DNA of 64,000 nt from an uncultured Candidatus Saccharibacteria bacterium (GCA_964496425.1 CAZBZO010000002.1:2450-66449), one strand, 5' to 3'; positions 14,286 through 59,200 are shown, counted from the first letter of the stretch. Made by a program: numbers and translations. The notes: generated by a model from the letters alone, not told the origin.

Positions 14286-14356
14286 TGGGGTATCGTCTAA
14301 TGGTAGGACAGAGGCCTTTGAAGCCTTTAATCGAGGTTCGAATCCTTGTACCCCAG
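14286..14356 (+). tRNA. tRNA-Gln (anticodon TTG)
   Basis: Cloverleaf: acceptor tggggta/tacccca, anticodon loop ctTTGaa, T-loop ggttcgaatcc; close to E. coli tRNA-Gln. Confidence 0.85.
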
Positions 14357-14379
14357 CACTTCTATCAAAGTTTAATATA

Positions 14380-14916
14380 ATGCAAAATATTGTTAAGGGA
14401 GAAAATACATCCAAGATCGGAATGACATCAAGAGATGTTGTTGATCTTTATAATAAACTAGAAAATTTGGGGATTAAAATCTGGGTAGATGGTGGTTGGG
14501 GTGTGGATGCCTTACTGGGCAAACAAACTCGTGAGCATAAAGATCTTGATATCGCTATTCAATATAAAGATCTCCAAAAATTCCGAGAATATTTAGAATC
14601 CCAAGGATACAGTGAAGTGGAACGACAAGAAGATAAGAAGTGGAACTTTGTTTTAGGAGATAAGGATGGACACGAAGTAGATGTACACGCTTTTACTTTT
14701 GATGAAAATGGACTAGTGATTGAAGGTATTGAATACCCCGAAGGTTCTCTTTCTGGTATCGGTAGTATAAATGAGTGTAAGGTGAGATGTATTGATCCAA
14801 AACATTTAGTCATGTTCCATACTACATATGAACCAAGAGAATATGATTACCAAGATGTGCATGCTCTGTGCGAGAAATTTAATATAGAATTGCCAGAGGT
14901 ATTTCGCACTAAATAA
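14380..14916 (+). CDS. nucleotidyltransferase of the ANT(2'')-Ia / LinB-like family
   Basis: IWVDGGWGVDALLGKQTREHKDLDIAI matches WxxGGWxxDAxLGxxTRxHxDxD core of aminoglycoside 2''-nucleotidyltransferase family. Confidence 0.6.
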   Translation: MQNIVKGENTSKIGMTSRDVVDLYNKLENLGIKIWVDGGWGVDALLGKQTREHKDLDIAIQYKDLQKFREYLESQGYSEVERQEDKKWNFVLGDKDGHEVDVHAFTFDENGLVIEGIEYPEGSLSGIGSINECKVRCIDPKHLVMFHTTYEPREYDYQDVHALCEKFNIELPEVFRTK

Positions 14917-45004: not shown

Positions 45005-46540
45005 CTAAATTCCCCGCATGACTTCGATTTTGGCACCAAGAGTATTTAAGCGCCGAGCTAAATCAGCATAGCCACGGGTAATAGAATGCACATTGCGAAG
45101 CGTTGATACGCCTTCAGCTCCGAGCATGGCGATCAAGATAGAAGCTGATGGCCGGAGTGCGGGCGGGCAGATGATTTGGGCGCCACGAAGTTTGGTGCTG
45201 CCGGTAACGAGTGCTCGATGTTGATCAAGAAGTTTTACATCTGCACCTAAACGATTGAGTTCGGTAAAATAAATGGCTCGGTTTTCCCATGACCAATCAT
45301 GAATGAGGGTAGTGCCGGTAGCAATAGCAGAAATAGGCACAAAAAACGGCAGACTATCGTTTTGAAGTCCGGGAAAGGGTTGGGTGTGGAGCTTATCATG
45401 CAGTGCGTGCAATTTCGAAGGCGCAATAGTGATGTCGACAAGCTTCGTTTTGCCGTTTTTTGAAAGATACGGTGCACTTTGTGTGTACGACTGACCCATG
45501 CGAGAGAGTTTTTCAAGTTCAAGCTCGAGAAAATCAATCGGCACTCTTTTTATCGTGAGTGTCGAATGAGTCAGGATACCAGCTGCCAGGAAAAACATAC
45601 TTTCAATCGGATCTTCGCTATTGTAGTGTTCAACAGTTTGGTTTATGTCTGCGATACCGTGCACAATAAGTGTTGTCGTGCCGATACCTTCAATGACAAC
45701 GCCCATCTTTTCGAGTAAGAAACAGACATCTTGAACTTGATAGTTTGGCGGAGCAAACTTGATCGTTGTGGTACCAGGAATACGCGCAGCAGCCGCAATC
45801 ATACATATGGCTCCTGTGTCACTTGATTCGTAGAGAATGATCGTTCGATCTTTTTTGAGATTTTTTGGACGAGTAATGTGGTAGCCGTCCTCTTTGGTAG
45901 TGATTTTCACACCGAGCGTTTCCAGACCGTAGCGATTTGAAGAAATAGTACGCTCTCCCATTTTGCATCCACCAGCATGCGGAAAAACAAATTTATCTGC
46001 GTAGTGAATAAGACTACCAAGAAAGGTGGCACTTCTGGTTTTGGTAACTGCATCTCGATCGATATGATCAAATGTCATTTTTTTACCTGGTATGATTTCT
46101 ACGGTGTCTGCTGAAAGCCACCGTACCTCAACACCGAGACTTTTCATGATAGCAATGTAACGATACACTTCATCAATCTCTGGAATGCCATGGAGGATTG
46201 TTTTGCCGCGGTTGACTAATGCCGCACAGAACATATTGATTGCTCCATTTTTTGAAGTATTGGTGGTGATTGAGCCATGGAGCTTGCGGCCGCCGTAGAT
46301 TTTGAAATCAAGCGATTCTGACAAGCCGACAAGCTTGCGCTCCAGTACTTCACCGATCTTTGTGAGCTGTTCTAGGGTCAGATTTTGACCGCCTCTTTCC
46401 ATACGGGCGACCGCGCTTTGGGAGGTACCTAAGGCTTTGGCGAAATCGCTTTGAGTCATGGATTTTTCTTCGCGGAGTTTCTTTATTCGATCCCCAATTT
46501 TCTCGGAGTCGCTTTTCTGGGCTGTTTTTGTTGATGCCAT
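45005..46540 (-). CDS. murA: fusion protein: N-terminal XRE-family HTH domain + UDP-N-acetylglucosamine 1-carboxyvinyltransferase (MurA)
   Basis: HTH_3 segment (LREEKSMTQSDFAKALGTSQSAVARMERG) followed by complete MurA (KLHGSITTNTSKNGAINMF..., active-site GGCKMGERTISS, C-terminal ITRGYADLARRLNTLGAKIEVMRG). Confidence 0.8.
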   Translation of the reverse strand: MASTKTAQKSDSEKIGDRIKKLREEKSMTQSDFAKALGTSQSAVARMERGGQNLTLEQLTKIGEVLERKLVGLSESLDFKIYGGRKLHGSITTNTSKNGAINMFCAALVNRGKTILHGIPEIDEVYRYIAIMKSLGVEVRWLSADTVEIIPGKKMTFDHIDRDAVTKTRSATFLGSLIHYADKFVFPHAGGCKMGERTISSNRYGLETLGVKITTKEDGYHITRPKNLKKDRTIILYESSDTGAICMIAAAARIPGTTTIKFAPPNYQVQDVCFLLEKMGVVIEGIGTTTLIVHGIADINQTVEHYNSEDPIESMFFLAAGILTHSTLTIKRVPIDFLELELEKLSRMGQSYTQSAPYLSKNGKTKLVDITIAPSKLHALHDKLHTQPFPGLQNDSLPFFVPISAIATGTTLIHDWSWENRAIYFTELNRLGADVKLLDQHRALVTGSTKLRGAQIICPPALRPSASILIAMLGAEGVSTLRNVHSITRGYADLARRLNTLGAKIEVMRGI

Positions 46541-46547
46541 ATTGTGG

Positions 46548-46571
46548 AAGTATATCATATATGATATACTT
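46548..46571. promoter_or_regulatory. 24-bp perfect palindrome (aagtatatcatatatgatatactt) in murA/murB divergent intergenic region; candidate operator
   Basis: perfect dyad symmetry; contains TATGAT/TATACT -10-like hexamers in both orientations; 8 bp from HTH-MurA start codon. Confidence 0.5.
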
Positions 46572-46578
46572 GGCAAGT

Positions 46579-47607
46579 ATGATAGATATGCATCACAACG
46601 TCGCACTTGCTCGGTATTCAACGTTTCGAATGGGTAGTACGGCCGCATATTTTGCCAGTGTCTCGTCTTTGCCTGAAATAGAAGAGTGTCTTTCTTTTGC
46701 AGATGCTAATAATCTTCCCGTCATTGTGTTAGGCGGGGGATCCAATACAATATTTGCCTCAGTAGAGCCGCTCAATGCTTTCGTAATAAAAATAGATAGT
46801 AAGGGCAAAAAAATTATTTCTACAAATGAGAACAGTACGCTGGTGGAGATCGGAGCCGGGGAAAATTGGGACGATGTGGTGGCATGGAGCGTAGAAAATA
46901 ATCTCTCGGGAATTGAAATGCTCTCTGCCATACCTGGTACCTCTGGAGCTACCCCCATACAAAATGTTGGCGCATACGGTGGCGAGATCAAAAATGTCCT
47001 CGTATCACTTCGGGCCTACGATAGACATTCTCGTAGCGTTGTCACGCTTTCAAACACCGACTGTGGGTTTGGGTATCGCGATAGTATTTTTAAAAAAGAT
47101 GCTCGTGACCGTTATATTATTCTTAGTATTACTTTGCGACTATCTCCCCATGCACCCGAGGCTCCAGAGTACCCAGGTGTGAAGAAGTATTTTGATGAGA
47201 AGGGAATCGTTTCGCCCACTCTTTTGCAAATCCGTGAAGCTATTGTCGCCATCCGAGCCCATAAGCTGCCAGATCCCCGGGATATAGCATCGGTGGGTTC
47301 TTTTTTTAAGAACCCGTTTATAGAGACCCAAAAAGCGCTTACGCTCAAAACGAAGTATCCAACACTCGCTGTTTTCCCAGTAAGTGAAACTCAGGCGAAG
47401 ATAGGTGCGGGATCACTGCTTGATACGCTCGGACTTCGAGGAAAAGTATTTGGCAATTTGTCACTGTATGCCGGCAATGCATTAGTGATTGTAAACAATG
47501 GTCAGACGCGACCAGAAGAGCTTTTAGAACTCAAGGAGTACATTATTTCTGAAGTAGAAAAAAAATTCGGTATTACACTTGAACCTGAACCAGTGTTTGT
47601 GACTTGA
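46579..47607 (+). CDS. murB: UDP-N-acetylenolpyruvoylglucosamine reductase MurB
   Basis: FAD-binding PCMH domain (ARYSTFRMGSTAAYF...VLGGGSN), C-terminal MurB domain. Confidence 0.85.
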   Translation: MIDMHHNVALARYSTFRMGSTAAYFASVSSLPEIEECLSFADANNLPVIVLGGGSNTIFASVEPLNAFVIKIDSKGKKIISTNENSTLVEIGAGENWDDVVAWSVENNLSGIEMLSAIPGTSGATPIQNVGAYGGEIKNVLVSLRAYDRHSRSVVTLSNTDCGFGYRDSIFKKDARDRYIILSITLRLSPHAPEAPEYPGVKKYFDEKGIVSPTLLQIREAIVAIRAHKLPDPRDIASVGSFFKNPFIETQKALTLKTKYPTLAVFPVSETQAKIGAGSLLDTLGLRGKVFGNLSLYAGNALVIVNNGQTRPEELLELKEYIISEVEKKFGITLEPEPVFVT

Positions 47608-47612
47608 TCATT

Positions 47613-47631
47613 GTGCGCGATAGAGGATTCG
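47613..47631. repeat. 19-bp exact copy of tRNA-Val 3' end (att-like island boundary)
   Basis: gtgcgcgatagaggattcg identical to 53045-53063 (3' acceptor/T-arm part of minus-strand tRNA-Val); 6 nt after murB stop. Confidence 0.8.
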
Positions 47632-47787
47632 GTCACAGATAATTTTCTGCTGAAAATTTCCGCGAGTCTCCGACGACACGATCCTCTGATCGCCCGCCTC
47701 GCGCCGCCGCGCTTTGGCTTTCTCATCCCTTTCGCATCGCAATGATGCTCCACTCGAATAGTTCCCAACTATTCTCGTGGATCATTG

Positions 47788-48008
47788 TGCACCTTAGGAA
47801 TAAAATTACGAACCCTCCATATCTGGCAAATTTCCCAAACGGTGCTGCTATATCTACTGATTCTGGAAATAGTGCGCTTGGTACTGATCCAGAATTTTGG
47901 CAGAAAGTAAGGAATGACATAGTCACTCTCAGTGAGATTATAAAGGATAGTGGGAAAGAAGACAATGAGGAGGAATTGTCATTTCTAGCACGTTATCCTG
48001 GGCAATGA
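47788..48008. repeat. ~210-bp direct repeat copy 1 flanking defence cassette (contains 71-nt 100% identical core 47895-47965; encodes small ORF)
   Basis: aligns with 51344-51556; small + strand ORF 47742..48008 and minus ORF 47723..47965 both have paralogs in copy 2. Confidence 0.8.
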
Positions 48009-48093
48009 TTCTTTTTTTTGATTATTCTCATTCAAAAGTATTGAATTTAATAAATAGCTTTATCTGCAAGAGTAAAAATGCTAAATTGCATAT

Positions 48094-49779
48094 ATGGCAA
48101 ATATCCATAACCTGAAAATCAAAAACTTTAAGGGGATCAAGGAACTGGATCATACTTTTGGTCCAGCTAACTTGATTTGCCTGGTGGGTCGCGGGGATTC
48201 TGGAAAAACAACTATTCTCGAAGCAATTGAACGTGCATTATACCCGAACTGGAATCCATCTATAAGTGATAATGATTTTTATAACTGTGACATTTCTTTG
48301 CCGCTCGAGATAGAGGTAACACTCAAGGGGATTGCCGATAAGCTATTGAGCGATAATAAATATGGACTACATATTCGTGGTCTTCATGCGGATGGAATGA
48401 CTATTTGTGATGAAATTCAAGATGGGCAAGAAAAACTTCTTACAATACTGTTTAAAGTTGAAAAAGATCTGGAACCTAAATGGTTTGTAACAAGTCATCG
48501 CCCACATCAGGAGGACATGAAAATTGACACGGGAGATCGCTCTACTTTTAATGTTTTTTTGCTATCTGATTATCTGGATAAACATTTTTCATGGAGTAAA
48601 GGAACACCATTATTCGCTTTACTTAAACAGGACGGAAATATAGCAGAAAGTTCATTGTTACTAGATGCTGTTCGAGATTTAAAGATAGGGATCGATAGAG
48701 TAGGATTTCCTCATCTAGACACAGTTATTGATAGGGTTAAGAGTTCGACACTAAAATTTGGTGTCAATATCAATAATACTAAAACTAGCATTGATATAAA
48801 GGATCTTGCCATAAAGGATAGTAAGGTAATTCTTCATGATGACTTGGTTCCTTTAAAACTTAAGGGAAAAGGTTCAAAAAGACTTATTTCTGTTGCAATC
48901 CAAACGGAATTAGCAAAAGACGGGATATTATTACTTGACGAAATAGAACAAGGCCTTGAACCTGATAGAGTTAAGCATCTTGTCAGAACTCTTTGCTGTA
49001 ATACCAACGAACAAACATTTGTGACCACTCATTCACAGCAAGTAATTGAAGAACTTGAACCAGAAAATATATTTGTTGTGAATGCCGAAAATGGCATTGT
49101 GACTATCAAGCAAACAAATAGTGCTGAAAGCGATAAATATAAGAGTCTTTTTAGAACATGCTCTGAAGCACTGTATGCAAATCGAGTCATTGTTTGTGAA
49201 GGCAAAACTGAGCTTGGATTTTGCCGGTCCATAGACAAACAAAGAGTCCTATCATCATTACCATCAATGGCCATGAAGGGTGTTGTGTACTCCCTAGGTG
49301 GTGGTGATGGATTTAACAGAAAGGCAAAACAACTGAAAGAAAATCTTGGTAAAGAAGTTTGTGTTTTTTGTGATTCAGATAAAGATGAGGATATTGGTGA
49401 ACCAACAAAAGTTGAATTGAGAGCTTCAGGTATAGATATTTTTGATTGTGAGACACTTAATAATTTAGAACAACAGATTTCAAAAGATCTACCATGGGAA
49501 GGGATCGAGGAGCTTTGCAACTATGTTGTTCAAGATAAAAACATTAAGAAAGAATTTGCTCTTTATTTTAAAGAATTGACTACTTCTAGTTGGAATAACG
49601 CTGATACTCCTGAAAATAGAAAACTCTTTTCCGATGCAGCAAAAAAATATTCTTGGTTTAAAAGAATTGATCACGGTGAGAAACTAGGGGACATCTGTCT
49701 TAAATATAAGAGTCAATTAGCAGAAGACTCACGGCTAAAAGTGATTATCTCCGGAATAAATTCCTGGATAGAAATATGA
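48094..49779 (+). CDS. OLD-family ABC-type ATPase with C-terminal TOPRIM nuclease domain (class 2 OLD; GajA-like)
   Basis: Walker A GRGDSGKTT, ABC signature/Walker B LLLDEIEQGLEP...H, TTHSQQ; TOPRIM glutamates VIVCEGKTE and DxD CDSDKD. Confidence 0.75.
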   Translation: MANIHNLKIKNFKGIKELDHTFGPANLICLVGRGDSGKTTILEAIERALYPNWNPSISDNDFYNCDISLPLEIEVTLKGIADKLLSDNKYGLHIRGLHADGMTICDEIQDGQEKLLTILFKVEKDLEPKWFVTSHRPHQEDMKIDTGDRSTFNVFLLSDYLDKHFSWSKGTPLFALLKQDGNIAESSLLLDAVRDLKIGIDRVGFPHLDTVIDRVKSSTLKFGVNINNTKTSIDIKDLAIKDSKVILHDDLVPLKLKGKGSKRLISVAIQTELAKDGILLLDEIEQGLEPDRVKHLVRTLCCNTNEQTFVTTHSQQVIEELEPENIFVVNAENGIVTIKQTNSAESDKYKSLFRTCSEALYANRVIVCEGKTELGFCRSIDKQRVLSSLPSMAMKGVVYSLGGGDGFNRKAKQLKENLGKEVCVFCDSDKDEDIGEPTKVELRASGIDIFDCETLNNLEQQISKDLPWEGIEELCNYVVQDKNIKKEFALYFKELTTSSWNNADTPENRKLFSDAAKKYSWFKRIDHGEKLGDICLKYKSQLAEDSRLKVIISGINSWIEI

Positions 49780-51182
49780 GTGAGACATTTGATGTAAGAT
49801 CTTTTGCAACCGCGCGGGATAATGTTTTAATTGCTCCAGCAGGTTTTGGCAAAACCCATTCAATTAGTGAATGTCTTAAGTACACTCATGGTAGACAACT
49901 TATTCTAACGCATACTCAAGCTGGTGTCGCTTCTATTAAAGACAAGCTACAAAAATGTTATATCAGTAAAGACAAATACAGTGTGGAGACCATATCTAGT
50001 TTTGCTAAAAGGTATGTGGTTTCCTTCGATAATTCAACAAGTATTCCAAATGAAACAGATGATAACTTCTATCCTTATTTCATTGAACAGGCAACCAATT
50101 TGTTATCTTCAATCTTAGTACAGGATATAATAAAGCTTTCCTACTCAGGCTTGTTTGTTGATGAATATCAAGACTGTACTATTAAGCAACATAATTTAAT
50201 ATTGATATTGGCCGGAATACTGCCAACCCACGTTTTAGGTGATCCTTTACAAGGAATTTTTGGTTTTGCTGGCGATCTAGTTGATCTAAATGACTCTCCT
50301 CAGATGGGTAGATTCAATACAGTCCATTATTTGAAAGTCCCTCATCGGTGGATCATTGGGGGTAATAAGCAACTTGGAACGGATTTACTACAAATAAGAG
50401 AGAAATTGCAATTAAATCTTGAAATTGAATTAAAGCACTTTCCATCCATAGAATTTAGGCAAGGAGGTTATTTAGATCATTATAATTTCATAATGGAAAC
50501 CCTAAAAAACTGTGATAGCGTCTTAGTAATTGATCCTAATTCAATGAGATTAAGTAACAGGGAAAAGTTTGTTGTTACTTTCAAGTATATTCCCTTACTA
50601 ATTGAAGCATTTGATGGGAAGGACTTTTATTCTTCCGCGATCCATTTTGATAATAAAAACAATCTTCCTGCTAGTGAGGTTTTACACAAGTTTATTGAAG
50701 GTAAGTTTTCTAATTTAGATAATTGGTACGATAAGACTAATAGGAGATTCAGAAAAAAAAGAAACCCTGTTGAAGAGAAGGAGTTGTTCGTGATAAAACA
50801 ACTTATGAGTAGGTTGGAATTAAGTTACTCACTAATGGATTTGAAAGAGGTCATATTTAGAATAAGAAATTTAAAGGGTGTTAACTGCGCGAGAAGGGAT
50901 CTTTTAAGTTCTCTGAGTAGATCAATGGAAGATGCTCATTATTCAAGAATCTCAGTACTGGAAGCAATGAGAAACAATCGAAATGGGATAAGGAGATTAG
51001 GTAGAAAAATGTATGGCAAATGTGTAGGTACAACTCTTCTAACTAAAGGGTTGGAGTTTGAAACCGTAATTATATTAGATGCAGATAAATTTAATGACCC
51101 CAAGAATTTTTATGTTGCAATATCAAGATGTATTAAGAGGCTTATTATACTTGCCAGTAATAGTAAATTAAATCCGTATTAA
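49776..51182 (+). CDS. short UvrD-like superfamily-1 helicase (GajB-like)
   Basis: Walker A APAGFGKTH, motif II VDEYQD, C-terminal motif VI-like TLLTKGLEFETVIILDAD; 4-bp overlap with upstream ATPase. Confidence 0.7.
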   Translation: MSETFDVRSFATARDNVLIAPAGFGKTHSISECLKYTHGRQLILTHTQAGVASIKDKLQKCYISKDKYSVETISSFAKRYVVSFDNSTSIPNETDDNFYPYFIEQATNLLSSILVQDIIKLSYSGLFVDEYQDCTIKQHNLILILAGILPTHVLGDPLQGIFGFAGDLVDLNDSPQMGRFNTVHYLKVPHRWIIGGNKQLGTDLLQIREKLQLNLEIELKHFPSIEFRQGGYLDHYNFIMETLKNCDSVLVIDPNSMRLSNREKFVVTFKYIPLLIEAFDGKDFYSSAIHFDNKNNLPASEVLHKFIEGKFSNLDNWYDKTNRRFRKKRNPVEEKELFVIKQLMSRLELSYSLMDLKEVIFRIRNLKGVNCARRDLLSSLSRSMEDAHYSRISVLEAMRNNRNGIRRLGRKMYGKCVGTTLLTKGLEFETVIILDADKFNDPKNFYVAISRCIKRLIILASNSKLNPY

Positions 51183-51343
51183 CCAAGAATAGATTCTTTG
51201 TGTTATTATTACTTTTTTTGAATTGCTGAGCTTGTTGAAGTTGATTGTGAGAGGTTCAAATTTTGTTTAGGTAACCTTCAATTACAAGAACATTTGACAA
51301 GATTCTGTAAAGGAGGGAGCATTTGCTATTTATGACAATTGGG

Positions 51344-51556
51344 TGCACCTTAGGAAAAAAATTATGCCCTCCATATCTGGCAAATTTCCCAAACGGTGCG
51401 GCTATACCTACTGATCCTGGAAATAACATCCTAGCTACAGATCCAGCATTTTGGCAGAAAGTAAGGAATGACATAGTCACTCTCAGTGAGATTATAAAGG
51501 ATAGTGGGAAAGAAGACAAACCGGATGAATTGTCGTTTCTAGCAAAACTTCCCTAG
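51344..51556. repeat. ~210-bp direct repeat copy 2 flanking defence cassette (71-nt identical core 51450-51520)
   Basis: see copy 1; small ORF 51323..51556 paralogous to 47742..48008. Confidence 0.8.
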
Positions 51557-51591
51557 TTATCAAGCTAGGTACTTATTAGTATGCTACTTGT

Positions 51592-51828
51592 ATGGATACC
51601 TCTATACCAAATGATTTAAGAAAGTGGAGGAAGGCTAAGGGATTTCGACAGCTTGATGTAGCATGTAAACTAGGATTTTCTAGCACTGATCGAATTTCGA
51701 AGTGGGAGAAGGGAATTTCCTATCCTCATCTGATTAATCTCTTTAAGCTCTGCGCGATATATGAGGTAATGCCGCAGGAGTTGTATGGAGAAGTCTTGAG
51801 ACAAGTTTATCAATCACAAAATAAATAA
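51592..51828 (+). CDS. XRE-family helix-turn-helix transcriptional regulator
   Basis: 78 aa; LRKWRKAKGFRQLDVACKLGFSSTDRISKWEKG HTH_3 pattern. Confidence 0.7.
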   Translation: MDTSIPNDLRKWRKAKGFRQLDVACKLGFSSTDRISKWEKGISYPHLINLFKLCAIYEVMPQELYGEVLRQVYQSQNK

Positions 51829-51830
51829 TT

Positions 51831-52748
51831 TTAGTAAGTCTTATTGAGCAAGGGGTCAAAGACCATTTTGTAATTAGAATCTTTTACAAAATCATGCTCA
51901 TCGAATTCAAGAATAGTTTGTTTCAGGTTAAAATTATACGCTTCTGTTTTGGATTGAATAAAAAAACTTACTCCCTCAGCATTGCCAAAAAAATGCCTTT
52001 GTGGATTCGTTACATTTTCATGAAGTAGTTTTGCATGGAATATTTCACTATTAAAGTAATGAAGTATTCTCTTGTGAACTTCCCCAAAATAATCTTTACC
52101 GGAATCAGTGCCGTTAAAATATTCTCCGTGTACCAATCTATGCCTTAATCCAGATCGAGAATTTCCTTTTATGCCAAATAATTCGATTTTAAGCTCTTTC
52201 CCTAGTATTAGTTCAATAAAGTTAAAGTCCTTTTTGTCATTTCTTTTGGCAAGAGCTTCAATGGCTGAAAACATGAGCAGCAACTTAGAAGAATACCCAG
52301 TAGCATTGGTTGCATCATTCCAATAAAAGTAGAATTCATCGGGTATCTGGAGGTTCCTATGAAGTACATCCAATGCCTTCAGATGGTCTTCCATGAACAT
52401 TAGTCCAACAGGCGACCTATCTTTCACAATTCTTATAAATGCTGTATCAGAATCTTCCCTATGAATAAGAAAAGATTCATTCACAAAATCAATATAGCAT
52501 TGAGAGATAAGGGCAATCTTGGGAATAATCTGAAGTAGTTTTAATCTAAATTCCTTGAAAGCTTCATGGAAGTCAGCTGCTTCAAATGTTGCTTCAGCCA
52601 GCCAGGCATCTCCTTTCCATCCATATGCATGATTGAAATCCCATTGTGAAAGGGTTATGTCATCAATCGCAAATGATGCTGGATTATCCTTTCCGATAAT
52701 TGCATTGTGAGCAAGAGTTGTAATGCGATGCTGAATTTTATACTTCAT
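51831..52748 (-). CDS. hypothetical protein, island-encoded (possible Rx4H/HEPN-like motif RHRLVH)
   Basis: 305 aa ORF, AT-rich codon usage like neighbouring Gabija genes; no confident domain. Confidence 0.4.
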   Translation of the reverse strand: MKYKIQHRITTLAHNAIIGKDNPASFAIDDITLSQWDFNHAYGWKGDAWLAEATFEAADFHEAFKEFRLKLLQIIPKIALISQCYIDFVNESFLIHREDSDTAFIRIVKDRSPVGLMFMEDHLKALDVLHRNLQIPDEFYFYWNDATNATGYSSKLLLMFSAIEALAKRNDKKDFNFIELILGKELKIELFGIKGNSRSGLRHRLVHGEYFNGTDSGKDYFGEVHKRILHYFNSEIFHAKLLHENVTNPQRHFFGNAEGVSFFIQSKTEAYNFNLKQTILEFDEHDFVKDSNYKMVFDPLLNKTY

Positions 52749-52942
52749 AAATCTTTTTGCTTCTCCATAAATGTATCAACAAGTAATTTAGCGAGATACA
52801 TCAATTGAATATTTTCTTCTTGTTCCTTAGCTGATAAGCGTTCAAAGGCTTGGACTCCCGCGTGCTTTATAGCTGACTCCTTCGCATACAGATAACCTTC
52901 TAAATCCATTCTTGCATTATTCATCAGCGTACTATAGCGCAT
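52745..52942 (-). CDS. hypothetical small protein, translationally coupled upstream of 305-aa ORF
   Basis: 65 aa; stop overlaps start of downstream ORF (ATGA). Confidence 0.35.
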   Translation of the reverse strand: MRYSTLMNNARMDLEGYLYAKESAIKHAGVQAFERLSAKEQEENIQLMYLAKLLVDTFMEKQKDL

Positions 52943-53045
52943 AGTAGGAGAAAGTTCGAATCCCTTTAACCTCCACCATGTTTTTGGTGTTTCTGCAAAA
53001 TAAAAAATCCTTAGGAAGTAAGGATTTTTGAGTAATACCTTAAGG

Positions 53046-53118
53046 TGCGCGATAGAGGATTCGAACCTCTGGCCTACCCCACGTCAAGGGGTCGCTCTAC
53101 CAACTGAGCTAACCGCGC
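53046..53118 (-). tRNA. tRNA-Val (anticodon GAC)
   Basis: Reverse complement folds: acceptor gcgcggt/atcgcgc, D-loop agctcagttggtagagc, anticodon loop ttGACgt, T-arm agagg-ttcgaat-cctct. Confidence 0.85.
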
Positions 53119-53207: not shown

Positions 53208-56200
53208 ATGCTTTTTTTTAATCAAAAAAAAATAAAAGACCAAGAAAACAATCAAATTCAGGATGTTTTTTTTGATTCAGCCAAAAGCATCATCAATCTT
53301 AAAAAAAAGACGCCATTTATTGAATTTCACTTTGAAAATTCAATTATTCTATTTAAAAAATACGAACGAAAATTGTTTGTCACCCTTGCAATATTTTTTG
53401 GAGTTGCAATTTTTAGTATGTTTTATGTCACCACGGCGAATGTTGCTGTTTTTTATTCAAGTAAATGTCTTGGGGGGTGGGAACATCCAGAAAACGCCGA
53501 AGGTAAGCCATCGCTTTCTTCTGGAGCTCATGCAGAAGATTTTACCAAAAATAATTCTGCATATGTGAAAGAACATTCTGCCTCTATGTACTGCGGCGAA
53601 TTTGACGGCGTAGTTCCCGTGGATGCTATACCTAAAACTTTCAAGCTTTCTCTGGCCTGGTCTGTTGATAATGGAACCGTTCGTCATCGCGAACCAAAAC
53701 CGTTTGATCTTTCCACTGAGTTTGAACCAGATACGAGTACCGCGGTAACTGATGAGAATAAAAATGATGATATTTTAAACGAAGGTGGTGAACAGGAAGA
53801 AATTATAACGGATGAGTCTAGAGAGAGTACTGACATCCTACAAGTAGAAGAGCGTGATAGTTCTCCTGAAACCGATCCTCAAGATGAGGAAGCATCCAGT
53901 GAGGATATTTCCTCAGAACAGAGTGATGAATCTTCAGACCAGCAAACATTCTTTGAGCGATTATTTACTAAAAAAGTATTTGCCCAAGAAGAAAATTCTG
54001 AAGGTACGAGCTCTGAGAGTTCTTCAAATAACAATGACTCAACATCTACCGAAAATGGATCTGAGAGCTCGGACTCAAGCTCGGATAATAAGAATGGTTC
54101 CGAACCATCAGGCGATGCTCCACAAGATTCTGAAAGCATAACAGAAAACGAGCCTTCAAACGTTCCGACTCAAGGATCGGAACAGAATAGAGATACTTCC
54201 GTACGGGATCAGAGAGAAATAACAGAGAAGAAAAATCGAATAAAAAAGGAAACAGGAAGCATCCCCGAAACGGAGCCAGTGGTAGACGGGTTTATGGAAG
54301 TTTCTTATACATTAGATGGAGCAACCTGGAACAGTCTGGGACAAGTCAGTATGAATAATTGGCAAGACGTATCTTTCGATATCCCACTTACCGCCTGGGC
54401 GGACCTTTCAACATTTCAAATCGGTTTTCAAACCCTAGCCAATCTTGATGAGTCACCGGCAATATATATAGACAGCGTGAGCGTCGAAGTGCAATATGAA
54501 ACAGAACAAGAAAACTTCAATCTTGAAGTTCCTACTGTAAAAATAATAGATTCGTCTGAAAATATCATTTTCAGCGACATGACAACATTCTCTTCCCAAG
54601 ACGAACCGTTCTTCGATGTAGTTAATCCAAAATATAGTGAGAGTGATTTACTTTTACTTATTAATGAAGGCAAAATTGAGATTGTAGAAGATACAGATAA
54701 GATGATAGATCTTTGGGAAATGCCCAGTATGCTCGAAGATCCGGTAAAAAATAGTATTGAATCAATCAAAAGTATTGTTAATCCAACAGTGTCGCATACA
54801 CCTTCTCAGATAGAGGAAGAAACTTTCTCTTCTCAAGATGAAGAGCAAGGTTCGGCGGGGCCACGCCGGAAGTCTACTCTTGAAATCATCGAAGGTTCTC
54901 CTCCTGACGAGCAAGCGCAAGAAGAGACCACAAACGGAGCGATTCAATTAAAAGAAAATACTTCCGAAGAATCTCCTGCAATTGAAAGTGATGGTGAGAA
55001 TATAGATCAATCAGAAGAAGGAGATAATGAGATTATATCAATGCTCCCCAAACAGAGCCTTGATCGTTATTGGGGAAATAGAATAAAATCTGAAAAAACA
55101 AACTCAATAATAAGTAATCAGAGTGGAGGTACTTCGAAAGCTTTTTTATTTGGGCCATATATTGCTCATGCGCAAGAAGAAGAAGCTCTGCATCTGAATG
55201 ATATTGTTGCGGAAGTGTTTGATTCTCAAGGTAAAACAGATATACAGACAAGTATAACAACCGTGATTATCGGTGGAGTACAAAAGAGAAGAGTCAATAT
55301 AGAGCGACCACAGCAATTCCGACCAGGAACGTATACCTTGCGGATAACATTGAGAGGAGAAAATGCAAATATTATTTCAGAGCAGAATTTTACGTGGGGA
55401 GTACTTGCGATCAATATTGACCGCTCAATAGAATTGCCTGGGGAAGATGCCTATATTCAAATGGCCGTGCTCAACGATCTTGGGCATACGCTGTGTAACG
55501 CTGATCTTTCACTTGAAATCAAAAGTCCTAGTGGTATCGTTACTCATTTCAATACAAGTGACGCTACTATTGTGTCTGCACAAGAATGTGGCGTAGATAA
55601 TATTATCCCAGTTCCAGACTATTTCAGTCACTACACTGTTTCAAACGAGATTGGTGTTTACTCAATGACACTAACTGCCGAGACGTTAAACGGCACAAAA
55701 ACGATTACTGATTCATTTGAAACAAAGGCATCTCCACTATTTGATGTTGTTCGTACCGGACCTACCAGAATAAATCCAACTGCTGGATATCCTGTGACTA
55801 TTGAAATTACCCCAAAGGCAGATTGGAATGGTGTTATAACCGAAACCGTACCGATTGATTTTACGATTTCACCGCCGATGAGAAGTATTGCATATGACAG
55901 TATTGAAATAGTAAACAATAAAAAAAATATTACGTGGAATATATCCTTGATTAAGGGTGAGACAACAACAATCGGCTATTACTTTGATGCACCGGACGAA
56001 AGTCCTCAATTTTATTTGTTGGGTCCCCTTGATTTTAGCCTACTTTCATTTAAAGGTTTGAAAACTACTTCTGTTTTTCAAGAAGCACGTGAGTGGCAAA
56101 TTGCAAGTGACGTTGCGACTATCGTACTTTTAACGACTGGTACGAGCTGGAGTGTGCCTGTAGACTTTGATCCAGCAAACAATACGATCGAAGGTATTGG

Positions 56201-59200
56201 CGGCGGCGGCGGCGGTGGTGGTGGAACGAATGGAACAGGAGCACAGGGTCGTGGTGGTGGCGGAGCTGGTGGTGGAGGTGAATATAGAAAAATTTCGAAT
56301 TTCAATCCAGGCGGTGCTGGATCAATATCATATGTAATTGGACAAGGTGGAACTTTCGGTGCAGCAAATACAAGTGGTAGTAATGCTACTGATACGACAT
56401 GGAATAGTACATCACTTGTTGCAAAAGGTGGACTTTTAGGAACGAATACTGGAGCAGGCACTGGTGGTACAGGTGGTGCTGGTGGTACTGGTGGTACTGG
56501 AGCTGCAGGAAATAATAATGGTGGTAAAGGTGGCCGTGGAGGAAACCGTTCTGTGACATTAGGCGGTGGTGGCGGTGGTGGAGGAGGTGCCGGTGGGACA
56601 AGTGCAGTTGGGGGCGCAGGAACAAACGGTACTGCTGGTAGTACTGGGGGTGCAGGAGGTGCGGGAGGTAATGCTTCTGGTGGAACAGCAGGAACGAGTA
56701 ATGGTGGGGCTGGAGGAGCTGGTACTGTTTGGACCGACAACTCAGGTGGCGCCAATAATGGTATACAAGGTGGTGCTGGTGGTGGTGGCGGAGGAGGACT
56801 TGCCAGTGCCGGTGCCGGTGGTGCATCAGGTACTGCTGGTAATTATGGAGCTGGCGGTGGCGGTGGTGCTGGTGGAGGTTCAGGTTCTTCAGCTGGAAGT
56901 GCTGGCAAGGCAGGAGCAAATGGTATTATTGCTATTACCTATACTCCGTTTACTATTTCAGGGACTGCAAATGGTAATGATACCGCAACTGTAAGAGTTG
57001 CTATTAATGGAACTTTACAAGCTCAAACAGGCACTATTTCTGCTAGTGCTTGGTCTATAAGTGGAGTCACTTTACCAACGTCTGGGGATATTATTACTGT
57101 TTGGGTAGATAACGTAAGTGACGCAAATGAATCAAGTGCGGTAACCAAGTGGAGTTCTGGTAGTGTTTCTAGTATGGTGCTTAACACCAATTTTTTAACA
57201 ATTGGAAGTAATCAAAATACAAGTTTGACGGTCACTAACCTTGGTCAATATGATTCTGACAATGATGAGGACATTATGCATACTGCGAATAGTGGGGCTT
57301 TCTTAGTGCAAGCATCTGGCAATACATATACAGGAGAAACCATCACAATAGCGTCAAGTAATACACTAACAGTTAGTACCGGTGAATCACTTACAACTGA
57401 AAAGATGATTATAAGTGGAACAGTAACTTCGTCAGGTACTGCCACCTATACATTTACTGCAACATCTGGGACACTACTTACGAGAACTGGAACATTCACT
57501 CAAAGTAATTCAACGGTTAATGTTACATCAGCATCAGGAACCCCTACATTCCTCTCTGCTGCAGTCACATTTCATATTCTTACTATTAATGCAGCTGCAA
57601 CGGTCATAAATGCTGGCGCAGTGATTACTATTGATGACACAAGTGGAGCTTTGCTCTACATTCAATCTGGAGTTCTCAATGACGATGGTTTGGGAATATC
57701 AACTTCGGCTTCTACCGCTAATACATTGCAAATAGATTCTGGTGGTACGATGTGTTTAGGTGGATCAAGTTCAAATACATCTGCAACTTGCAACACTGGC
57801 ACCGTATCAACGACGACAAGGTCTATGCCAGCATTTAGTACGTATACATTAAATGCTTCTTCGACTATTATTTATTTATCAGACGCAGACACAACTATTT
57901 CATCTACACCAACCTATGGTAATTTGAAATTACAGCCAAAATTCGTAACTACTGCACGTACCTATACCTTGAATGGCGCTATGACCATTAATGGTAATTT
58001 TGATATAAATCCCGAAGAATCAGGTGCGGGTACTCCTGCGCTTACAGTTAATGCCGGAGGTACCATTACAGTTGCGACAACAAAAACAATAACTTTGACA
58101 CGATCAAATAGTTCAAGTAGCTCTCTTGATCTAAGGCCCTCATCAACTGATTATAATCTTTCAACAGGGTTTTTGGTTGTGGCCACTGGTGGCACGCTTG
58201 ACGCAGCCAGTGCTTCGTCAACGATTACGCTTACAGGTACTTCTGGAACGCTATTTACAAAAGCTGGCACATTTACCCAAGGCACTTCTGATGTGGTTGT
58301 CACCAGTGCTTCAGGGACACCAACATTATTATCTGCCGGAACTACATTTCACAGGTTGACGATTAATAGCGCTGCAACTGTCATAAATGCAGGCGCAGTG
58401 ATTACTATGTCGAGTGCTGATGCCAATAACAGACTCTATATTCAAACTGGTGTGCTCAACGATGGAGGTAGTCAAATTGTTGGCACGGCAAATGGGACAA
58501 TGCTCATAGATGGAGGGGCAATGCTCTGTATTAATGGCACGGTGGGTGGGACCAATGCGACATGTAATAGCGGAGCAGCTGTTAATGGTGGATCAGGTGG
58601 ATTCCCAACCAACTATACCACTGGCAATATTACTCTTGCTGTTACTTCTACGGTTGCCTATCTTGGAAATGGTGGTTTGAGCATTTCATCCACGCCTACG
58701 TACGGGAATTTAAAATTGATCCCGGTACTAGCTTCAACAAATAAAAGTTATACATTTTCTGGTGTTACAACGATAAATGGAGATTTTACGATCCTACCTT
58801 CAGGTGCCGCACTGGAATTAAAAGTAAAGTTAGGCGGTGATCTAACGGTGGCTGCAACTAAAACGACAACAATTTCAAATAGCGGAGTTCCAACCTCTTT
58901 GTTGCAGCTGCGTCCAGTGAGTACAGATTATAATCTGACCACTGGCTTTTTGAGTGTCAGTAGTGGCTCCGAGCTCGATGCAACTCTCAGTGCATCGACT
59001 ATTACAATTACTGGGACATCAGGTACGCTGTATACAAATGCAGGGACATTTAGTAACGGAAGTACAGAAGTAAACTTTTCAGGTAATGGTAGTGCGACGA
59101 TCAATTCCGGTAGTATTACATTTAATAATTTTAGAAGTTCTGGTACGGGCACAAAAAGCCTCGGTGTTTCAGGAATTTCTGTTGCGAATAATATATTTAT

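What the first reader, a model, noticed from the sequence alone, without database searches (positions are those of the whole stretch)
47788..51556. Defence cassette bracketed by ~210-bp direct repeats carrying a duplicated small ORF
Two regions, 47788-48008 and 51344-51556, are roughly 85-90% identical. They share a 71-nt 100% identical core (47895-47965 = 51450-51520). Each encodes a small ORF (…PPYLANFPNGAAI.TD.GN…DPEFWQKVRNDIVTLSEIIKDSGKED…). They sit immediately before and after the GajA/GajB-like pair. Such flanking repeats could mediate cassette gain, loss or exchange by homologous recombination. Alternatively they are halves of a duplicated small gene into which the cassette inserted. 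The function of the small ORF is unknown.
Basis: seen in the sequence. Interest (0 to 1): 0.55.

Follow-up and report, generated by a model that had tools for sequence, protein, structure and literature searches.

The report
Conserved end of tRNA-integrated defence cassettes
The two ~205-bp repeats are real: they are the shared left-hand end of two small, recombinase-less gene cassettes (one carrying Gabija) that sit in tandem inside a 5.3-kb island inserted exactly at the 3' end of a tRNA-Val gene of a CPR-type bacterium, which makes this a compact example of how streamlined bacteria may swap anti-phage genes.

Summary
The repeat is confirmed: 47787-47990 matches 51343-51544 over 204 columns at 89.7% identity, with a 71-nt identical core, and occurs only twice in the window. 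GajA and GajB lie between the copies.

The repeats are not a stand-alone bracket. A relative (L009) has the site empty, with the spacer ending ...GATCATT directly abutting tRNA-Val. Window 47787-53044 (5,258 bp, 35% GC against 44%) is therefore an insertion at the tRNA's extreme 3' end, with GTGC at every junction.

The island is two modules, and each begins GTGC-ACCTTAGGAA followed by the ~205-bp unit:
- M1 is the unit, Gabija and a ~60-nt right-end element.
- M2 is the unit, an HTH gene, a HEPN-like 305-aa gene and a 65-aa ORF.

A third copy (L004, another sample) has the same unit and right-end element around a different defence gene, next to a different tRNA.

A 65-66-nt core is identical in all three copies (P about 1e-6 per pair), while the flanks differ by 18-20%, mostly non-synonymously. 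The constraint is therefore on the DNA rather than on the "small ORF".

No recombinase is recognisable in the window.

Best reading: a CIME-like, trans-mobilised defence-cassette family, with the unit acting as its att arm or homology pad. This is a new variant of a known kind and of moderate interest.

The parts
47613..47786 (-). Older, conserved 174-nt GC-rich element between murB and the island. It starts (on the + strand) with a 19-nt exact copy of the tRNA-Val 3' end (47613-47631) and ends with GATCATT, the native flank of the tRNA.
   Evidence: The 19-nt exact match to 53046-53064 is. The element is present and 93.7% identical in relative L009, where murB DNA is only ~71% identical. Minus-strand fold z = -4.5. 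All 4 substitutions at paired positions keep pairing on the minus strand only. No Rfam hit.
47780..47790 (.). Left island junction (attL-like): native flank GATCATT, then GTGC, then island DNA.
   Evidence: The empty site in L009 reads ...GTGGATCATT|GTGC|GCGATAGAGGATTCGAACC (tRNA-Val). The window reads ...GTGGATCATT|GTGC|ACCTTAGGAAT.
47787..47995 (+). Repeat unit L, the left end of module M1. It begins GTGC-ACCTTAGGAA and contains small ORF copy 1 (GTG 47787 or ATG 47742 to stop 48008).
   Evidence: CCTTAGGAA at 47792; protein P0001.
47895..47965 (.). Invariant core of unit L. It is 71 nt identical to unit R, and 65-66 nt are identical in all three known copies. It contains a minus-strand TTGTCT-17-TATAAT promoter-like match.
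   Evidence: 66-nt invariant run, permutation P < 1e-5; P(0 differences) about 1e-6 per pair.
48094..49779 (+). gajA (OLD-family ATPase + TOPRIM), cargo of module M1.
   Evidence: PADLOC GajA 1e-156 over the full length; Pfam AAA_15, AAA_21 and OLD-like TOPRIM.
49776..51182 (+). gajB (UvrD-like helicase), overlapping gajA by 4 nt.
   Evidence: PADLOC GajB 4e-119 over the full length; Pfam UvrD-helicase.
51285..51342 (+). Right-end element of module M1 (~58-62 nt; contains TTGACA and AAGGAGG). It is shared with the right end of the L004 module, where it abuts a different tRNA.
   Evidence: L004 1116-1177 matches window 51285-51346 at 82% (E = 1e-11). The local alignment scores 65 against a null maximum of 30. 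There is an imperfect inverted repeat with the unit tail.
51343..51548 (+). Repeat unit R, the left end of module M2. It begins GTGC-ACCTTAGGAA and contains small ORF copy 2 (TTG 51323 or ATG 51332 to stop 51556). Core at 51449-51519.
   Evidence: CCTTAGGAA at 51348; protein P0003.
51592..51828 (+). XRE-type HTH regulator, module M2.
   Evidence: Pfam HTH_3 1.2e-8; PHROG and NCBIfam repressor-type hits.
51831..52748 (-). 305-aa protein of an unannotated family with an invariant Rx4H motif (R202...H207). It is a candidate HEPN-type nuclease and the main cargo of module M2.
   Evidence: 287 representative clusters; invariant columns; faint HEPN_MAE_28990 and RiboL-PSP hits in family members; no recombinase signature; no PDB relative.
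52745..52942 (-). 65-aa ORF overlapping the 305-aa gene by 4 nt (probable operon partner); function unknown.
   Evidence: no family hit.
53003..53044 (+). Right end of the island and of module M2. It has the hairpin AAAAATCCTTAGGAAGTAAGGATTTTT, which carries the third CCTTAGGAA of the window (53009-53017), followed by ...ACCTTAAG abutting GTGC.
   Evidence: It is unrelated to the M1 and L004 right-end element.
53044..53118 (-). Intact tRNA-Val(GAC). Its extreme 3' end (GCAC, = GTGC at 53045-53048 on the + strand) is the insertion point.
   Evidence: ARAGORN and Rfam at 68.5 bits; junction comparison with L009.

Best explanation
The two repeats are homologous copies of a ~205-bp cis-acting end-module (the 'unit'). 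The unit defines the tRNA-distal end of a small family of recombinase-less defence cassettes.

Each cassette has the layout GTGC-ACCTTAGGAA, then the unit, then cargo, then a right end. It is inserted by site-specific recombination at the last four bases (GCAC) of a tRNA gene. The recombinase must be supplied in trans, because none is recognisable in the island or in the 64-kb window.

Two cassettes have accreted in tandem at tRNA-Val:
- M1 (47787-51342) carries Gabija.
- M2 (51343-53044) carries an HTH regulator, a HEPN-like 305-aa gene and a 65-aa ORF.

That tandem arrangement is why the unit appears on both sides of Gabija.

In the circular or tandem form, the right end of one cassette plus the unit forms a ~240-270-bp attP-like site. 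This site has GTGC as the crossover point, CCTTA(A)GG-type motifs on both sides, and a 65-66-nt invariant block. I interpret that block as a protein-binding or arm-type region, with a possible outward promoter.

Because the two units share 71 identical bases, they also allow RecA-dependent loss or re-acquisition of the Gabija module.

Shown directly:
- the repeat;
- the empty site;
- the junction sequences;
- the alternative cargo with the same two ends;
- the invariant core;
- the absence of a recognisable recombinase.

Inferred:
- site-specific recombination in trans;
- the att-arm role of the unit;
- the order of the insertions.

The small ORF is probably incidental or at most secondary.
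For: 1. Empty site. In relative L009...GTGGATCATT is followed directly by GTGCGCGATAGAGGATTCGAACC (tRNA-Val). In the window the same flank is followed by GTGC and then 5,258 bp of 35%-GC DNA before the tRNA.

2. Shared junctions. All six junctions share GTGC, and homology of all three unit copies begins exactly there, with unrelated upstream flanks. The six are window attL, M1/M2, window attR, L004 left, L004 right and the L009 empty site.

3. Same ends, different cargo, different tRNA. L004, from another sample, has the unit (93% identical to L), a different defence-type cargo (PDC-M68A / HNH-like, 6e-23) and the same ~60-nt right-end element. That element is then joined at GTGC to the 3' half of a different tRNA.

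4. DNA-level constraint. A 65-66-nt core has no difference among the three copies, while the flanks differ by 18-20% (P(0) about 1e-6 per pair; run-length permutation P < 1e-5). Flank changes are mostly non-synonymous (4:11, 1:14 and 5:16 synonymous to non-synonymous).

5. End motif. CCTTAGGAA occurs only three times in 64 kb (0.36 expected). The sites are the start of each unit and 28 nt inside the island's right junction, all on the same strand. GGTGCACC is a palindrome.

6. Inverted repeat. An imperfect 27-nt inverted repeat links the right-end element and the unit tail (P about 0.003 and 0.009 for the two window copies).

7. No recombinase. No Pfam recombinase or transposase domain is found in the island ORFs or in any ORF of at least 150 aa in the window.

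8. Precedent. Tandem accretion of integrase-less elements at tRNA 3' ends is an established process (CIMEs, PMC5704250; tycheposon arrays, 10.1101/2020.12.28.424599).
Against: - Only three copies of the unit are known. It is absent from 185,579 representative genomes, JGI metagenome contigs and IMG/VR, so 'family' rests on two organisms.
- No recombinase has been identified and no circular or excised form has been seen. Logan unitigs simply break at the repeat.
- attP/attB identity is only GTGC plus scattered positions. This is short for classical tRNA-targeting tyrosine integrases, which usually duplicate 15 nt or more of the tRNA.
- M2's right end is unrelated to the right end of M1 and L004, so M2 may not be the same kind of module.
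- The L004 tRNA is known from only 28 nt at a contig end (ARAGORN cannot call it).
- The inverted repeat is weak in L004 (P about 0.03).
- The PPYL frame is the only frame open in all three copies, so a coding role is not excluded.
- The L/R duplication could equally have arisen by a single homologous crossover (see rival 1).
Confidence: 0.55

Rival explanations
1. Campbell-type homologous insertion. A resident island already carried one unit at tRNA-Val. A circular molecule carrying right-end element, unit and Gabija recombined with it by a single RecA-dependent crossover inside the identical core. That produced two chimeric units flanking Gabija. On this view the unit acts as a homology 'landing pad' and no site-specific step was needed for the Gabija module.
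For: - The 71-nt perfectly identical tract between L and R exceeds the minimal length for efficient homologous recombination.
- The L004 copy is L-like on the 5' side (8 against 21 differences) and R-like on the 3' side (10 against 19). This is the configuration expected of an unrecombined or post-deletion unit (Fisher p = 0.008).
- M2's right end lacks the element that M1 and L004 share, as expected if only M1 arrived as that kind of circle.
- dprA (competence) is present in the window, and DNA uptake is proposed as a route for Patescibacteria (PMC12455944).
Against: - It does not explain why L004's right-end element is joined to a tRNA exactly at GTGC, nor why the whole island sits exactly at the tRNA-Val terminus relative to L009.
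- It does not explain why the core is also identical in L004, from a different sample.
- The 3'-side distances are noisy (10, 13 and 19 differences in 43 nt), so the mosaic signal is only suggestive.
Confidence: 0.25
2. The unit is primarily a real small protein-coding gene of about 70-88 aa, for example a regulator or accessory factor that travels with each defence cassette. The DNA repeat would then be just two paralogous gene copies.
For: - The PPYLANF...FWQKVRNDIVTLSEIIKDSGK frame is the only one of six open in all three copies. The chance of a 62-codon open frame in any of six frames is about 0.05.
- Gene callers annotated it in three assemblies.
- The R copy is preceded by AAGGAGG 5 nt before a TTG.
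- AlphaFold places a helix on the invariant segment.
Against: - There is no homologue outside this lineage among 5.8 billion proteins, and no Pfam, NCBIfam, PHROG or PADLOC hit.
- A 2-bp indel upstream of the shared frame forces different starts and frames in different copies. There is no canonical start downstream of the indel, and no Shine-Dalgarno sequence before the L and L004 starts.
- Outside the core, changes are about 3:1 non-synonymous.
- Inside the core even synonymous sites are invariant.
- The model has pLDDT 59.7 and pTM 0.25, with a disordered N-terminal half.
Confidence: 0.13
3. The right-end element plus the unit is a ~240-bp non-autonomous transposon (MITE-like) with imperfect terminal inverted repeats. 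It happens to lie next to the cassettes.
For: A 27-nt, 74%-complementary inverted repeat (51314-51340 and 51528-51554) bounds a ~241-bp segment.
Against: - There are only two copies in 64 kb and three in all the databases searched.
- No target-site duplication is present.
- In L004 the two 'ends' are separated by the cargo and are circularly permuted. This fits a circle integrating through GTGC, not a transposon.
- No transposase is present in the window.
Confidence: 0.04
4. The repeat is an assembly artefact or a chance similarity.
For: The sequences come from a metagenome. De Bruijn unitigs break at the repeat.
Against: - BLAST E = 4e-75.
- Independent NCBI contigs from three assemblies span the junctions at 99.95-100% identity.
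- The two copies differ at 21 positions, so they are not a collapsed or duplicated read artefact.
Confidence: 0.01

Closest known systems
CIMEs (cis-mobilizable elements) and tandem accretion at tRNA 3' ends (ICESt1/ICESt3 family and others; reviewed in PMC5704250, citing Pavlovic 2004 and Bellanger 2011)
   Same: - The elements lack integration and transfer genes but keep recognisable ends.
- They sit at the 3' end of a tRNA gene.
- Successive elements accumulate side by side, and newer arrivals can insert at the regenerated site.
- Mobility depends on a recombinase encoded elsewhere.
   Different: - CIMEs are defined as decay products of ICEs or IMEs and are flanked by att repeats that copy the tRNA end. 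Here the only tRNA-derived repeat at the recent junctions is GTGC.
- The conspicuous repeat is a ~205-bp non-tRNA arm with a 66-nt invariant core.
- The modules are tiny (1.7 and 3.6 kb) and carry one defence system each.
- No helper element is known, and the host is a CPR-type bacterium.
Tycheposons of Prochlorococcus (10.1101/2020.12.28.424599)
   Same: - They occur in streamlined genomes.
- They integrate at tRNA genes.
- They form tandem arrays with older degenerate remnants pushed away from the tRNA.
- Their cargo includes defence genes.
   Different: - Tycheposons carry their own tyrosine or serine recombinase, and array members are separated by partial tRNA copies.
- Here there is no recombinase, and the separator is the unit rather than a tRNA fragment.
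- The 19-nt tRNA-Val fragment at 47613 belongs to an older event that is shared with L009.
Integron gene cassettes (attC x attI, IntI)
   Same: - Minimal, promoter-poor, recombinase-less cassettes are defined by one conserved cis site.
- Cassettes are inserted in tandem at a fixed chromosomal point by an enzyme acting in trans.
- In the array the site is split between neighbouring cassettes.
- The cargo is interchangeable.
   Different: - The unit is not an attC. It has no consistent hairpin-forming structure (z-scores from -0.2 to -2.8; core z = +1.3 and -0.9).
- No IntI or attI is present.
- The target is a tRNA terminus.
- The site is about 240-270 bp rather than 57-141 bp.
Lambda-type attP (core plus P and P' arms, ~240 bp)
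   Same: - The overall size is similar.
- A short crossover core (GTGC within the palindrome GGTGCACC) is flanked by longer conserved arms with repeated motifs.
- After integration the arms are separated to the two ends of the element.
   Different: - No integrase, Xis or IHF sites have been identified.
- The arm-site assignment is inference only.
- Identity with attB is very short.
Gabija (GajA/GajB) defence system
   Same: The cargo of M1 is a canonical, full-length gajA-gajB operon.
   Different: Nothing unusual about the system itself was found. The interest lies in its vehicle. The small ORF is not a known Gabija component.

Membership tests
Gabija | GajA: OLD-family ABC-type ATPase with a C-terminal TOPRIM nuclease domain | tested here: met
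   PADLOC GajA PDLC04168 at 1e-156, aligning residues 1-559 of 561. Pfam AAA_15, AAA_21 and OLD-like TOPRIM (the TOPRIM hit, 22.5 bits, is just under its 23.2-bit cut-off).
Gabija | GajB: UvrD-like SF1 helicase encoded immediately downstream in the same operon | tested here: met
   PADLOC GajB PDLC04173 at 4e-119, aligning residues 10-466 of 468. The start codon overlaps the gajA stop by 4 nt.
Gabija | Confers phage resistance | not testable with these tools
tRNA-integrated genomic island | Insertion at the 3' end of a tRNA gene relative to an empty site in a related genome | tested here: met
   L009 has the spacer (...GATCATT) abutting tRNA-Val. The window has 5,258 bp between the two.
tRNA-integrated genomic island | Atypical base composition | tested here: met
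   Island GC is 35.3%, against 43.6% for the rest of the window.
tRNA-integrated genomic island | Flanking direct repeats that copy the tRNA 3' end (typically 15 nt or more) | tested here: inconclusive
   The recent island is flanked only by GTGC (4 nt). A 19-nt tRNA-Val copy exists at 47613-47631, but it belongs to an older event that is also present in L009.
tRNA-integrated genomic island | Integrase gene at the tRNA-proximal end | tested here: not met
   No recombinase domain is found in any island ORF or in any ORF of at least 150 aa in the window. The 305-aa protein has no hit, but its invariant residues form an Rx4H motif, not a tyrosine or serine recombinase motif.
CIME (cis-mobilizable element) | Lacks integration and transfer genes | tested here: met
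   As above.
CIME (cis-mobilizable element) | Retains functional attL and attR recognised by a helper's integrase | tested here: inconclusive
   Conserved ends exist: GTGC, CCTTAGGAA at both ends, the unit, and the right-end element. No helper or activity is known.
CIME (cis-mobilizable element) | Derived by decay of an ICE or IME; mobilised in cis after accretion with a helper | not testable with these tools
   No related ICE or IME was found, and only three copies of the unit are known.
Integron cassette | attC: imperfect palindrome that folds into a hairpin as single-stranded DNA | tested here: not met
   Fold z-scores for unit R are -0.2 and -0.9, and for the core +1.3 and -0.9. Only unit L (+) reaches -2.8, and this is not shared by R.
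Integron cassette | Adjacent intI and attI platform | tested here: not met
   No integrase in the window. The insertion point is a tRNA terminus.
MITE / non-autonomous transposon | Terminal inverted repeats, target-site duplication and many dispersed copies | tested here: not met
   A weak inverted repeat is present (P about 0.003-0.03). There is no target-site duplication, only two copies in the window, and none in other collections.

The most novel reading that the evidence does not exclude
A previously undescribed, integron-like cassette system built on tRNA genes in CPR/Patescibacteria. Minimal defence cassettes would be defined only by a ~240-270-bp attP-like site: the right-end element, GTGC, and a 205-bp unit with a 66-nt invariant protein-binding core. 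An unidentified trans-acting recombinase would shuffle them between the extreme 3' termini (GCAC) of different tRNA genes. The unit's outward (minus-strand) promoter might restore expression of what lies downstream of the tRNA, for example the conserved structured RNA at 47613-47786.
Probability: 0.2. Interest if true: 0.7.

Novelty: new variant of a known kind. Interest (0 to 1): 0.45.

Why it matters
CPR/Patescibacteria have tiny genomes, few recognised mobile elements and poorly understood phage defence. Surveys nevertheless report that horizontally acquired defence genes are enriched in them (PMC12455944).

This locus gives a concrete, base-pair-resolved example of how such organisms may acquire and exchange defence systems:
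- The modules are 1.7-3.6 kb and carry no recombinase.
- They are recognisable only by a shared cis-acting end.
- They are stacked at a tRNA terminus.
- The same ends are seen around Gabija in one strain and around an HNH-type effector in another.

If the unit is the handle of a trans-acting recombinase, it could be used as a search key for further cassettes, and so for unknown defence genes, in this lineage. It would also extend the CIME and integron logic of minimal hitchers (compare the iOriT elements of 10.64898/2026.01.13.699239) to a phylum where no such system is described.

If it is only a homology pad, it is still a clear case of repeat-mediated gain and loss of a defence operon.

Tried and rejected
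1. tmRNA or another known RNA as the integration target or the identity of the repeat. ARAGORN and Rfam, at both gathering and permissive thresholds, found only tRNA-Val in 47.4-53.3 kb.

2. RNA or ssDNA structure of the unit or core. There is no consistent signal.

3. Finding more copies.
- The protein search found 3 clusters.
- Degenerate peptide-pattern scans of representative genomes gave one spurious Cloacimonadota hit (L005). JGI metagenomes and IMG/VR gave none.
- An exact core 27-mer gave none in JGI metagenomes or IMG/VR.

4. Population variants lacking Gabija. Exact-protein look-ups of the HTH and GajA proteins returned only contigs identical to the window, or unitigs broken at the repeat edges 47936, 51396 and 51490. 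This was uninformative.

5. Extending L004. Its cargo occurs on no other contig. The nearest homologues (61-62% identical; L016, L017) lie in unrelated contexts without the unit or a tRNA.

6. 'Gene reconstitution across attP' (the right-end element supplying Shine-Dalgarno and start for the small ORF). This works for the R frame only. In L-type and L004-type units the 2-bp difference puts the upstream start out of frame, so the idea was dropped as a general mechanism.

7. Similarity between M2's right end and the M1/L004 right-end element. None was found.

8. Function of the 305-aa protein. There is no Pfam, NCBIfam, PHROG, PADLOC or PDB-sequence match. The single-sequence AlphaFold model is unusable (pLDDT 35), so no fold search was run. 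Only the invariant Rx4H motif and faint HEPN hits remain.

9. Promoter and terminator scan. Counts were at or below shuffle expectation, so the core's TTGTCT-17-TATAAT match is noted but not claimed.

Full report
**1. The observation**

The repeat is real.
- The repeat finder, MAFFT and BLAST agree that 47787-47990 and 51343-51544 align over 204 columns at 89.7% identity with a single 2-bp indel near the 5' end.
It has no third copy in the window and no match in 100 shuffles.
- Between the copies lie full-length gajA (48094-49779; PADLOC 1e-156) and gajB (49776-51182; 4e-119).
- Independent NCBI contigs from three assemblies reproduce the arrangement at 99.95-100% identity. One 6-kb contig spans both repeats, so this is not an assembly artefact.

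**2. The wider anatomy**

- GC content drops from about 44% to about 35% between roughly 47.75 and 53.0 kb. This low-GC block ends at an intact tRNA-Val(GAC) on the minus strand (53044-53118).
- Immediately after murB there is a 19-nt exact copy of the tRNA-Val 3' end (47613-47631), followed by a GC-rich 155-nt stretch that ends in GATCATT.

The decisive comparison is L009. This contig comes from a relative whose MurB is 70% identical at the protein level (murB DNA about 71%).
- L009 has the same tRNA fragment and spacer, 93.7% identical.
- In L009 the spacer's ...GTGGATCATT is followed directly by GTGCGCGATAGAGGATTCGAACC..., which is the intact tRNA-Val.
- In the window the same flank is followed by GTGC-ACCTTAGGAAT..., which is the first base of repeat L.
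- Window 47787-53044 (5,258 bp) is therefore an insertion at the very last bases (GCAC) of tRNA-Val. The 19-nt fragment plus spacer is an older feature shared by both genomes.

**3. Two modules, and a third elsewhere**

Homology among all unit copies begins exactly at GTGCACC, with unrelated sequence upstream, and ends at about the small ORF's stop. The island therefore divides into two modules:
- M1 (47787-51342): unit L, gajAB and a ~60-nt right-end element at 51285-51342.
- M2 (51343-53044): unit R, an XRE-type HTH gene, a convergent 65-aa/305-aa operon, and a hairpin-containing right end.

The only other copy found anywhere is on L004, a 1.2-kb Logan contig from a different run.
- The search covered 5.8 billion proteins, 185,579 representative genomes, JGI metagenome contigs and IMG/VR.
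- L004 has the unit (93% identical to L), then a different cargo, a 265-aa protein matching PADLOC PDC-M68A and HNH-endonuclease effectors (6e-23).
- It then has the same right-end element (82% over 62 nt; alignment score 65 against a null maximum of 30). That element is joined at GTGC to GGAATAGGAGAATCGAACTCCTGCC, which is the reverse complement of a canonical T-arm and acceptor 3' half of a different tRNA.
- So the same two ends surround different defence genes next to different tRNAs, always with GTGC at the junction.

This is the geometry expected if a circle carrying right end, GTGC and unit recombines with the GCAC terminus of a tRNA gene. The M1/M2 boundary then looks like an uninterrupted attP.

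**4. What is conserved in the unit**

- Among the three copies, 34 of 186 gap-free positions vary, but a 66-nt run is invariant (permutation P < 1e-5).
- Given flank divergences of 18-20%, the chance of no difference in 65 nt is about 1e-6 for each pair.
- Outside the core, codon changes in the PPYLANF frame are mostly non-synonymous (4:11, 1:14 and 5:16 synonymous to non-synonymous).
- Inside the core, even synonymous sites are frozen.
- The 2-bp indel lies upstream of the shared frame. As a result the L and L004 copies can only start at the GTG formed by the unit's first three bases, with no Shine-Dalgarno sequence. The R copy starts in the right-end element of M1 (TTG 51323, 5 nt after AAGGAGG). 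No canonical start lies downstream of the indel.
- The ORF has no homologue beyond these three and no family match. Its AlphaFold model is poor (pLDDT 59.7, pTM 0.25), with a disordered N-terminal half and a helix over the core.
- The frame is nevertheless the only one open in all three copies. The chance of such an open frame in any of six frames is about 0.05.

My reading is that the constraint acts on the DNA. I put translation of the ORF at roughly one in three, and it is not needed to explain the repeat.

Neither the unit nor the core has a consistent RNA or ssDNA fold, which argues against an attC-like site or a structured RNA.

**5. Site features**

- GGTGCACC is a palindrome.
- CCTTAGGAA occurs exactly three times in 64 kb (0.36 expected). 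The sites are five bases into each unit and at 53009-53017, 28 nt inside the island's right junction, all on the same strand. The right junction itself reads ACCTTAAG|GTGC.
- A 27-nt imperfect inverted repeat links the right-end element (51314-51340) with the unit tail (51528-51554). P is about 0.003, about 0.009 against the L tail, and weaker in L004. It delimits a ~241-bp segment.
- The core contains a minus-strand TTGTCT-17-TATAAT match that points out of the unit towards the left junction. Promoter-like matches are not enriched in the region, so this is only noted.

These features fit an attP-like site with a short crossover core and protein-binding arms, but none has been tested.

**6. 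No recombinase**

- The island ORFs are GajA, GajB, the HTH protein, the 305-aa protein, the 65-aa ORF and the small ORFs.
- The 305-aa protein belongs to a real, unannotated family of 287 representative clusters. Its invariant R202 and H207 form an Rx4H motif, and family members give faint HEPN hits. That points to a defence-type nuclease, not a recombinase.
- Pfam scans of every ORF of at least 150 aa in the window found housekeeping functions and no integrase, resolvase or transposase. The housekeeping genes include topA, dprA, aminoacyl-tRNA synthetases, the mraZ/mraW-pbp-mur cluster and tsaD. Eight further ORFs have no hit at all.
- MurB relatives include Candidatus Paceibacterota, so the host is a CPR-type bacterium.

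**7. Mechanism**

Best-supported model (confidence about 0.55): the units are the conserved tRNA-distal arm of minimal, trans-mobilised defence cassettes that accreted in tandem at tRNA-Val.
- The tRNA-proximal module (M2) would be the later arrival if both came by the site-specific route.
- Alternatively M1 entered at M2's left junction.

Main rival (about 0.25): the Gabija module entered by a single homologous crossover within the core of a resident unit.
- This is favoured by the 71-nt identity.
- It is also favoured by the mosaic of the L004 copy, which is L-like on the 5' side (8 against 21 differences) and R-like on the 3' side (10 against 19) (Fisher p = 0.008).
- It cannot by itself explain the GTGC junctions at two different tRNAs.

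The two routes are not exclusive.

The ideas that one cassette is 'bracketed' by its own repeats, or that the copies are halves of a split gene, do not survive.

**8. Comparison with known systems**

- CIMEs and tandem accretion at tRNA 3' ends (PMC5704250). Shared: integrase-less elements that keep their ends. Different: here the att identity with the tRNA is only 4 nt, the repeat is a long non-tRNA arm, and no parental ICE/IME or helper is known.
- Tycheposon arrays (10.1101/2020.12.28.424599). Shared: streamlined genomes, tRNA targets, older remnants and defence cargo. Different: tycheposons carry their own recombinase and are separated by partial tRNAs.
- Integron cassettes. Shared: the logic of cassettes defined by a cis site and inserted in trans. 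Different: the attC structure and the intI/attI platform were tested here and not met.
- Gabija itself is canonical.

I therefore rate this as a new variant of a known kind, of moderate interest. It is limited by the very small number of copies and the missing recombinase.

**9. Side observations**

These are listed separately under Noticed in passing:
- the conserved structured element between murB and the island;
- an HTH-MurA fusion with a conserved 24-nt palindrome in front of it;
- the HEPN-like 305-aa family;
- the widespread PDC-M68A-like single-gene family;
- a 2,582-aa Gly-rich giant protein beside the tRNA;
- a nucleotidyltransferase gene directly after tRNA-Gln.

Noticed in passing
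window 47613-47786 (minus strand); L009 ~1436-1609: A 174-nt GC-rich (53%) element lies directly downstream of tRNA-Val in the empty-site genome. It is 93.7% identical between two genomes whose murB DNA is only ~71% identical. Its minus-strand fold has z = -4.5. Of 11 substitutions, 7 are unpaired and all 4 paired ones keep pairing on the minus strand only (G-C to G-U three times, G-U to A-U once). Its 3' end copies 19 nt of the tRNA-Val 3' end, which pairs with an internal AGAGGAT segment. It has no Rfam match. It may be an undescribed tRNA-linked small RNA, now separated from the tRNA by the island.
   Followed up: partly
window 45005-46648 (-) and 46548-46571; L006, L008, L010: The MurA homologue (EPSP_synthase fold) carries an N-terminal XRE-type HTH domain (Pfam HTH_3, 8.6e-13). 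The fusion is conserved in relatives down to 59% MurB identity. A perfect 24-nt palindrome (AAGTATATCATATATGATATACTT) sits in the divergent murA-murB start region and is conserved in L009 and L010. It is a plausible operator for autoregulation of cell-wall precursor genes.
   Followed up: no
window 51831-52748 (-), with 52745-52942 (-) and 51592-51828 (+): The 305-aa protein belongs to an unannotated family of about 300-aa proteins (287 clusters at 50% identity). Q83, R202, H207, N233 and R251 are invariant, with an Rx4H motif in GLRHRLVHGEY, and members give faint HEPN hits. Here it is flanked by an HTH gene and a 65-aa partner. It is a candidate uncharacterised defence or abortive-infection system.
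   Followed up: partly
L004 274-1071 (-); homologues P0275-P0393: The L004 cargo is a 265-aa single-gene candidate defence protein. Its N-terminal ~130 aa match PADLOC PDC-M68A and HNH effector models, and PHROG families of unknown function at 1e-26. It has more than 1,000 homologues across phyla, and the N-terminal domain is much better conserved than the rest.
   Followed up: partly
window 53208-60956 (+): A 2,582-aa ORF lies immediately beyond tRNA-Val. It has an acidic Ser/Glu-rich N-terminal region, a long Gly-rich low-complexity block (GGGGGGGTNGTGAQGRGGGGAGGGG...) and many T/S-rich repeat segments. It is probably a giant surface or adhesin-like protein typical of CPR episymbionts. It was not analysed.
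   Followed up: no
window 14286-14916: An aminoglycoside-2''-adenylyltransferase-like nucleotidyltransferase gene (Pfam 1.1e-29) starts 23 nt after tRNA-Gln. This is another accessory-looking gene placed directly at a tRNA 3' end. No unit-like sequence is present there.
   Followed up: no
window 47936, 51396, 51490 (ends of L011, L012, L014): Logan unitigs from several runs end exactly at the edges of the shared blocks of the repeat. Both murB contigs (L006, L008) end at 47663, inside the spacer, next to the first position where L009 differs (47664, C versus T). This may indicate co-occurring strain variants in those samples.
   Followed up: no
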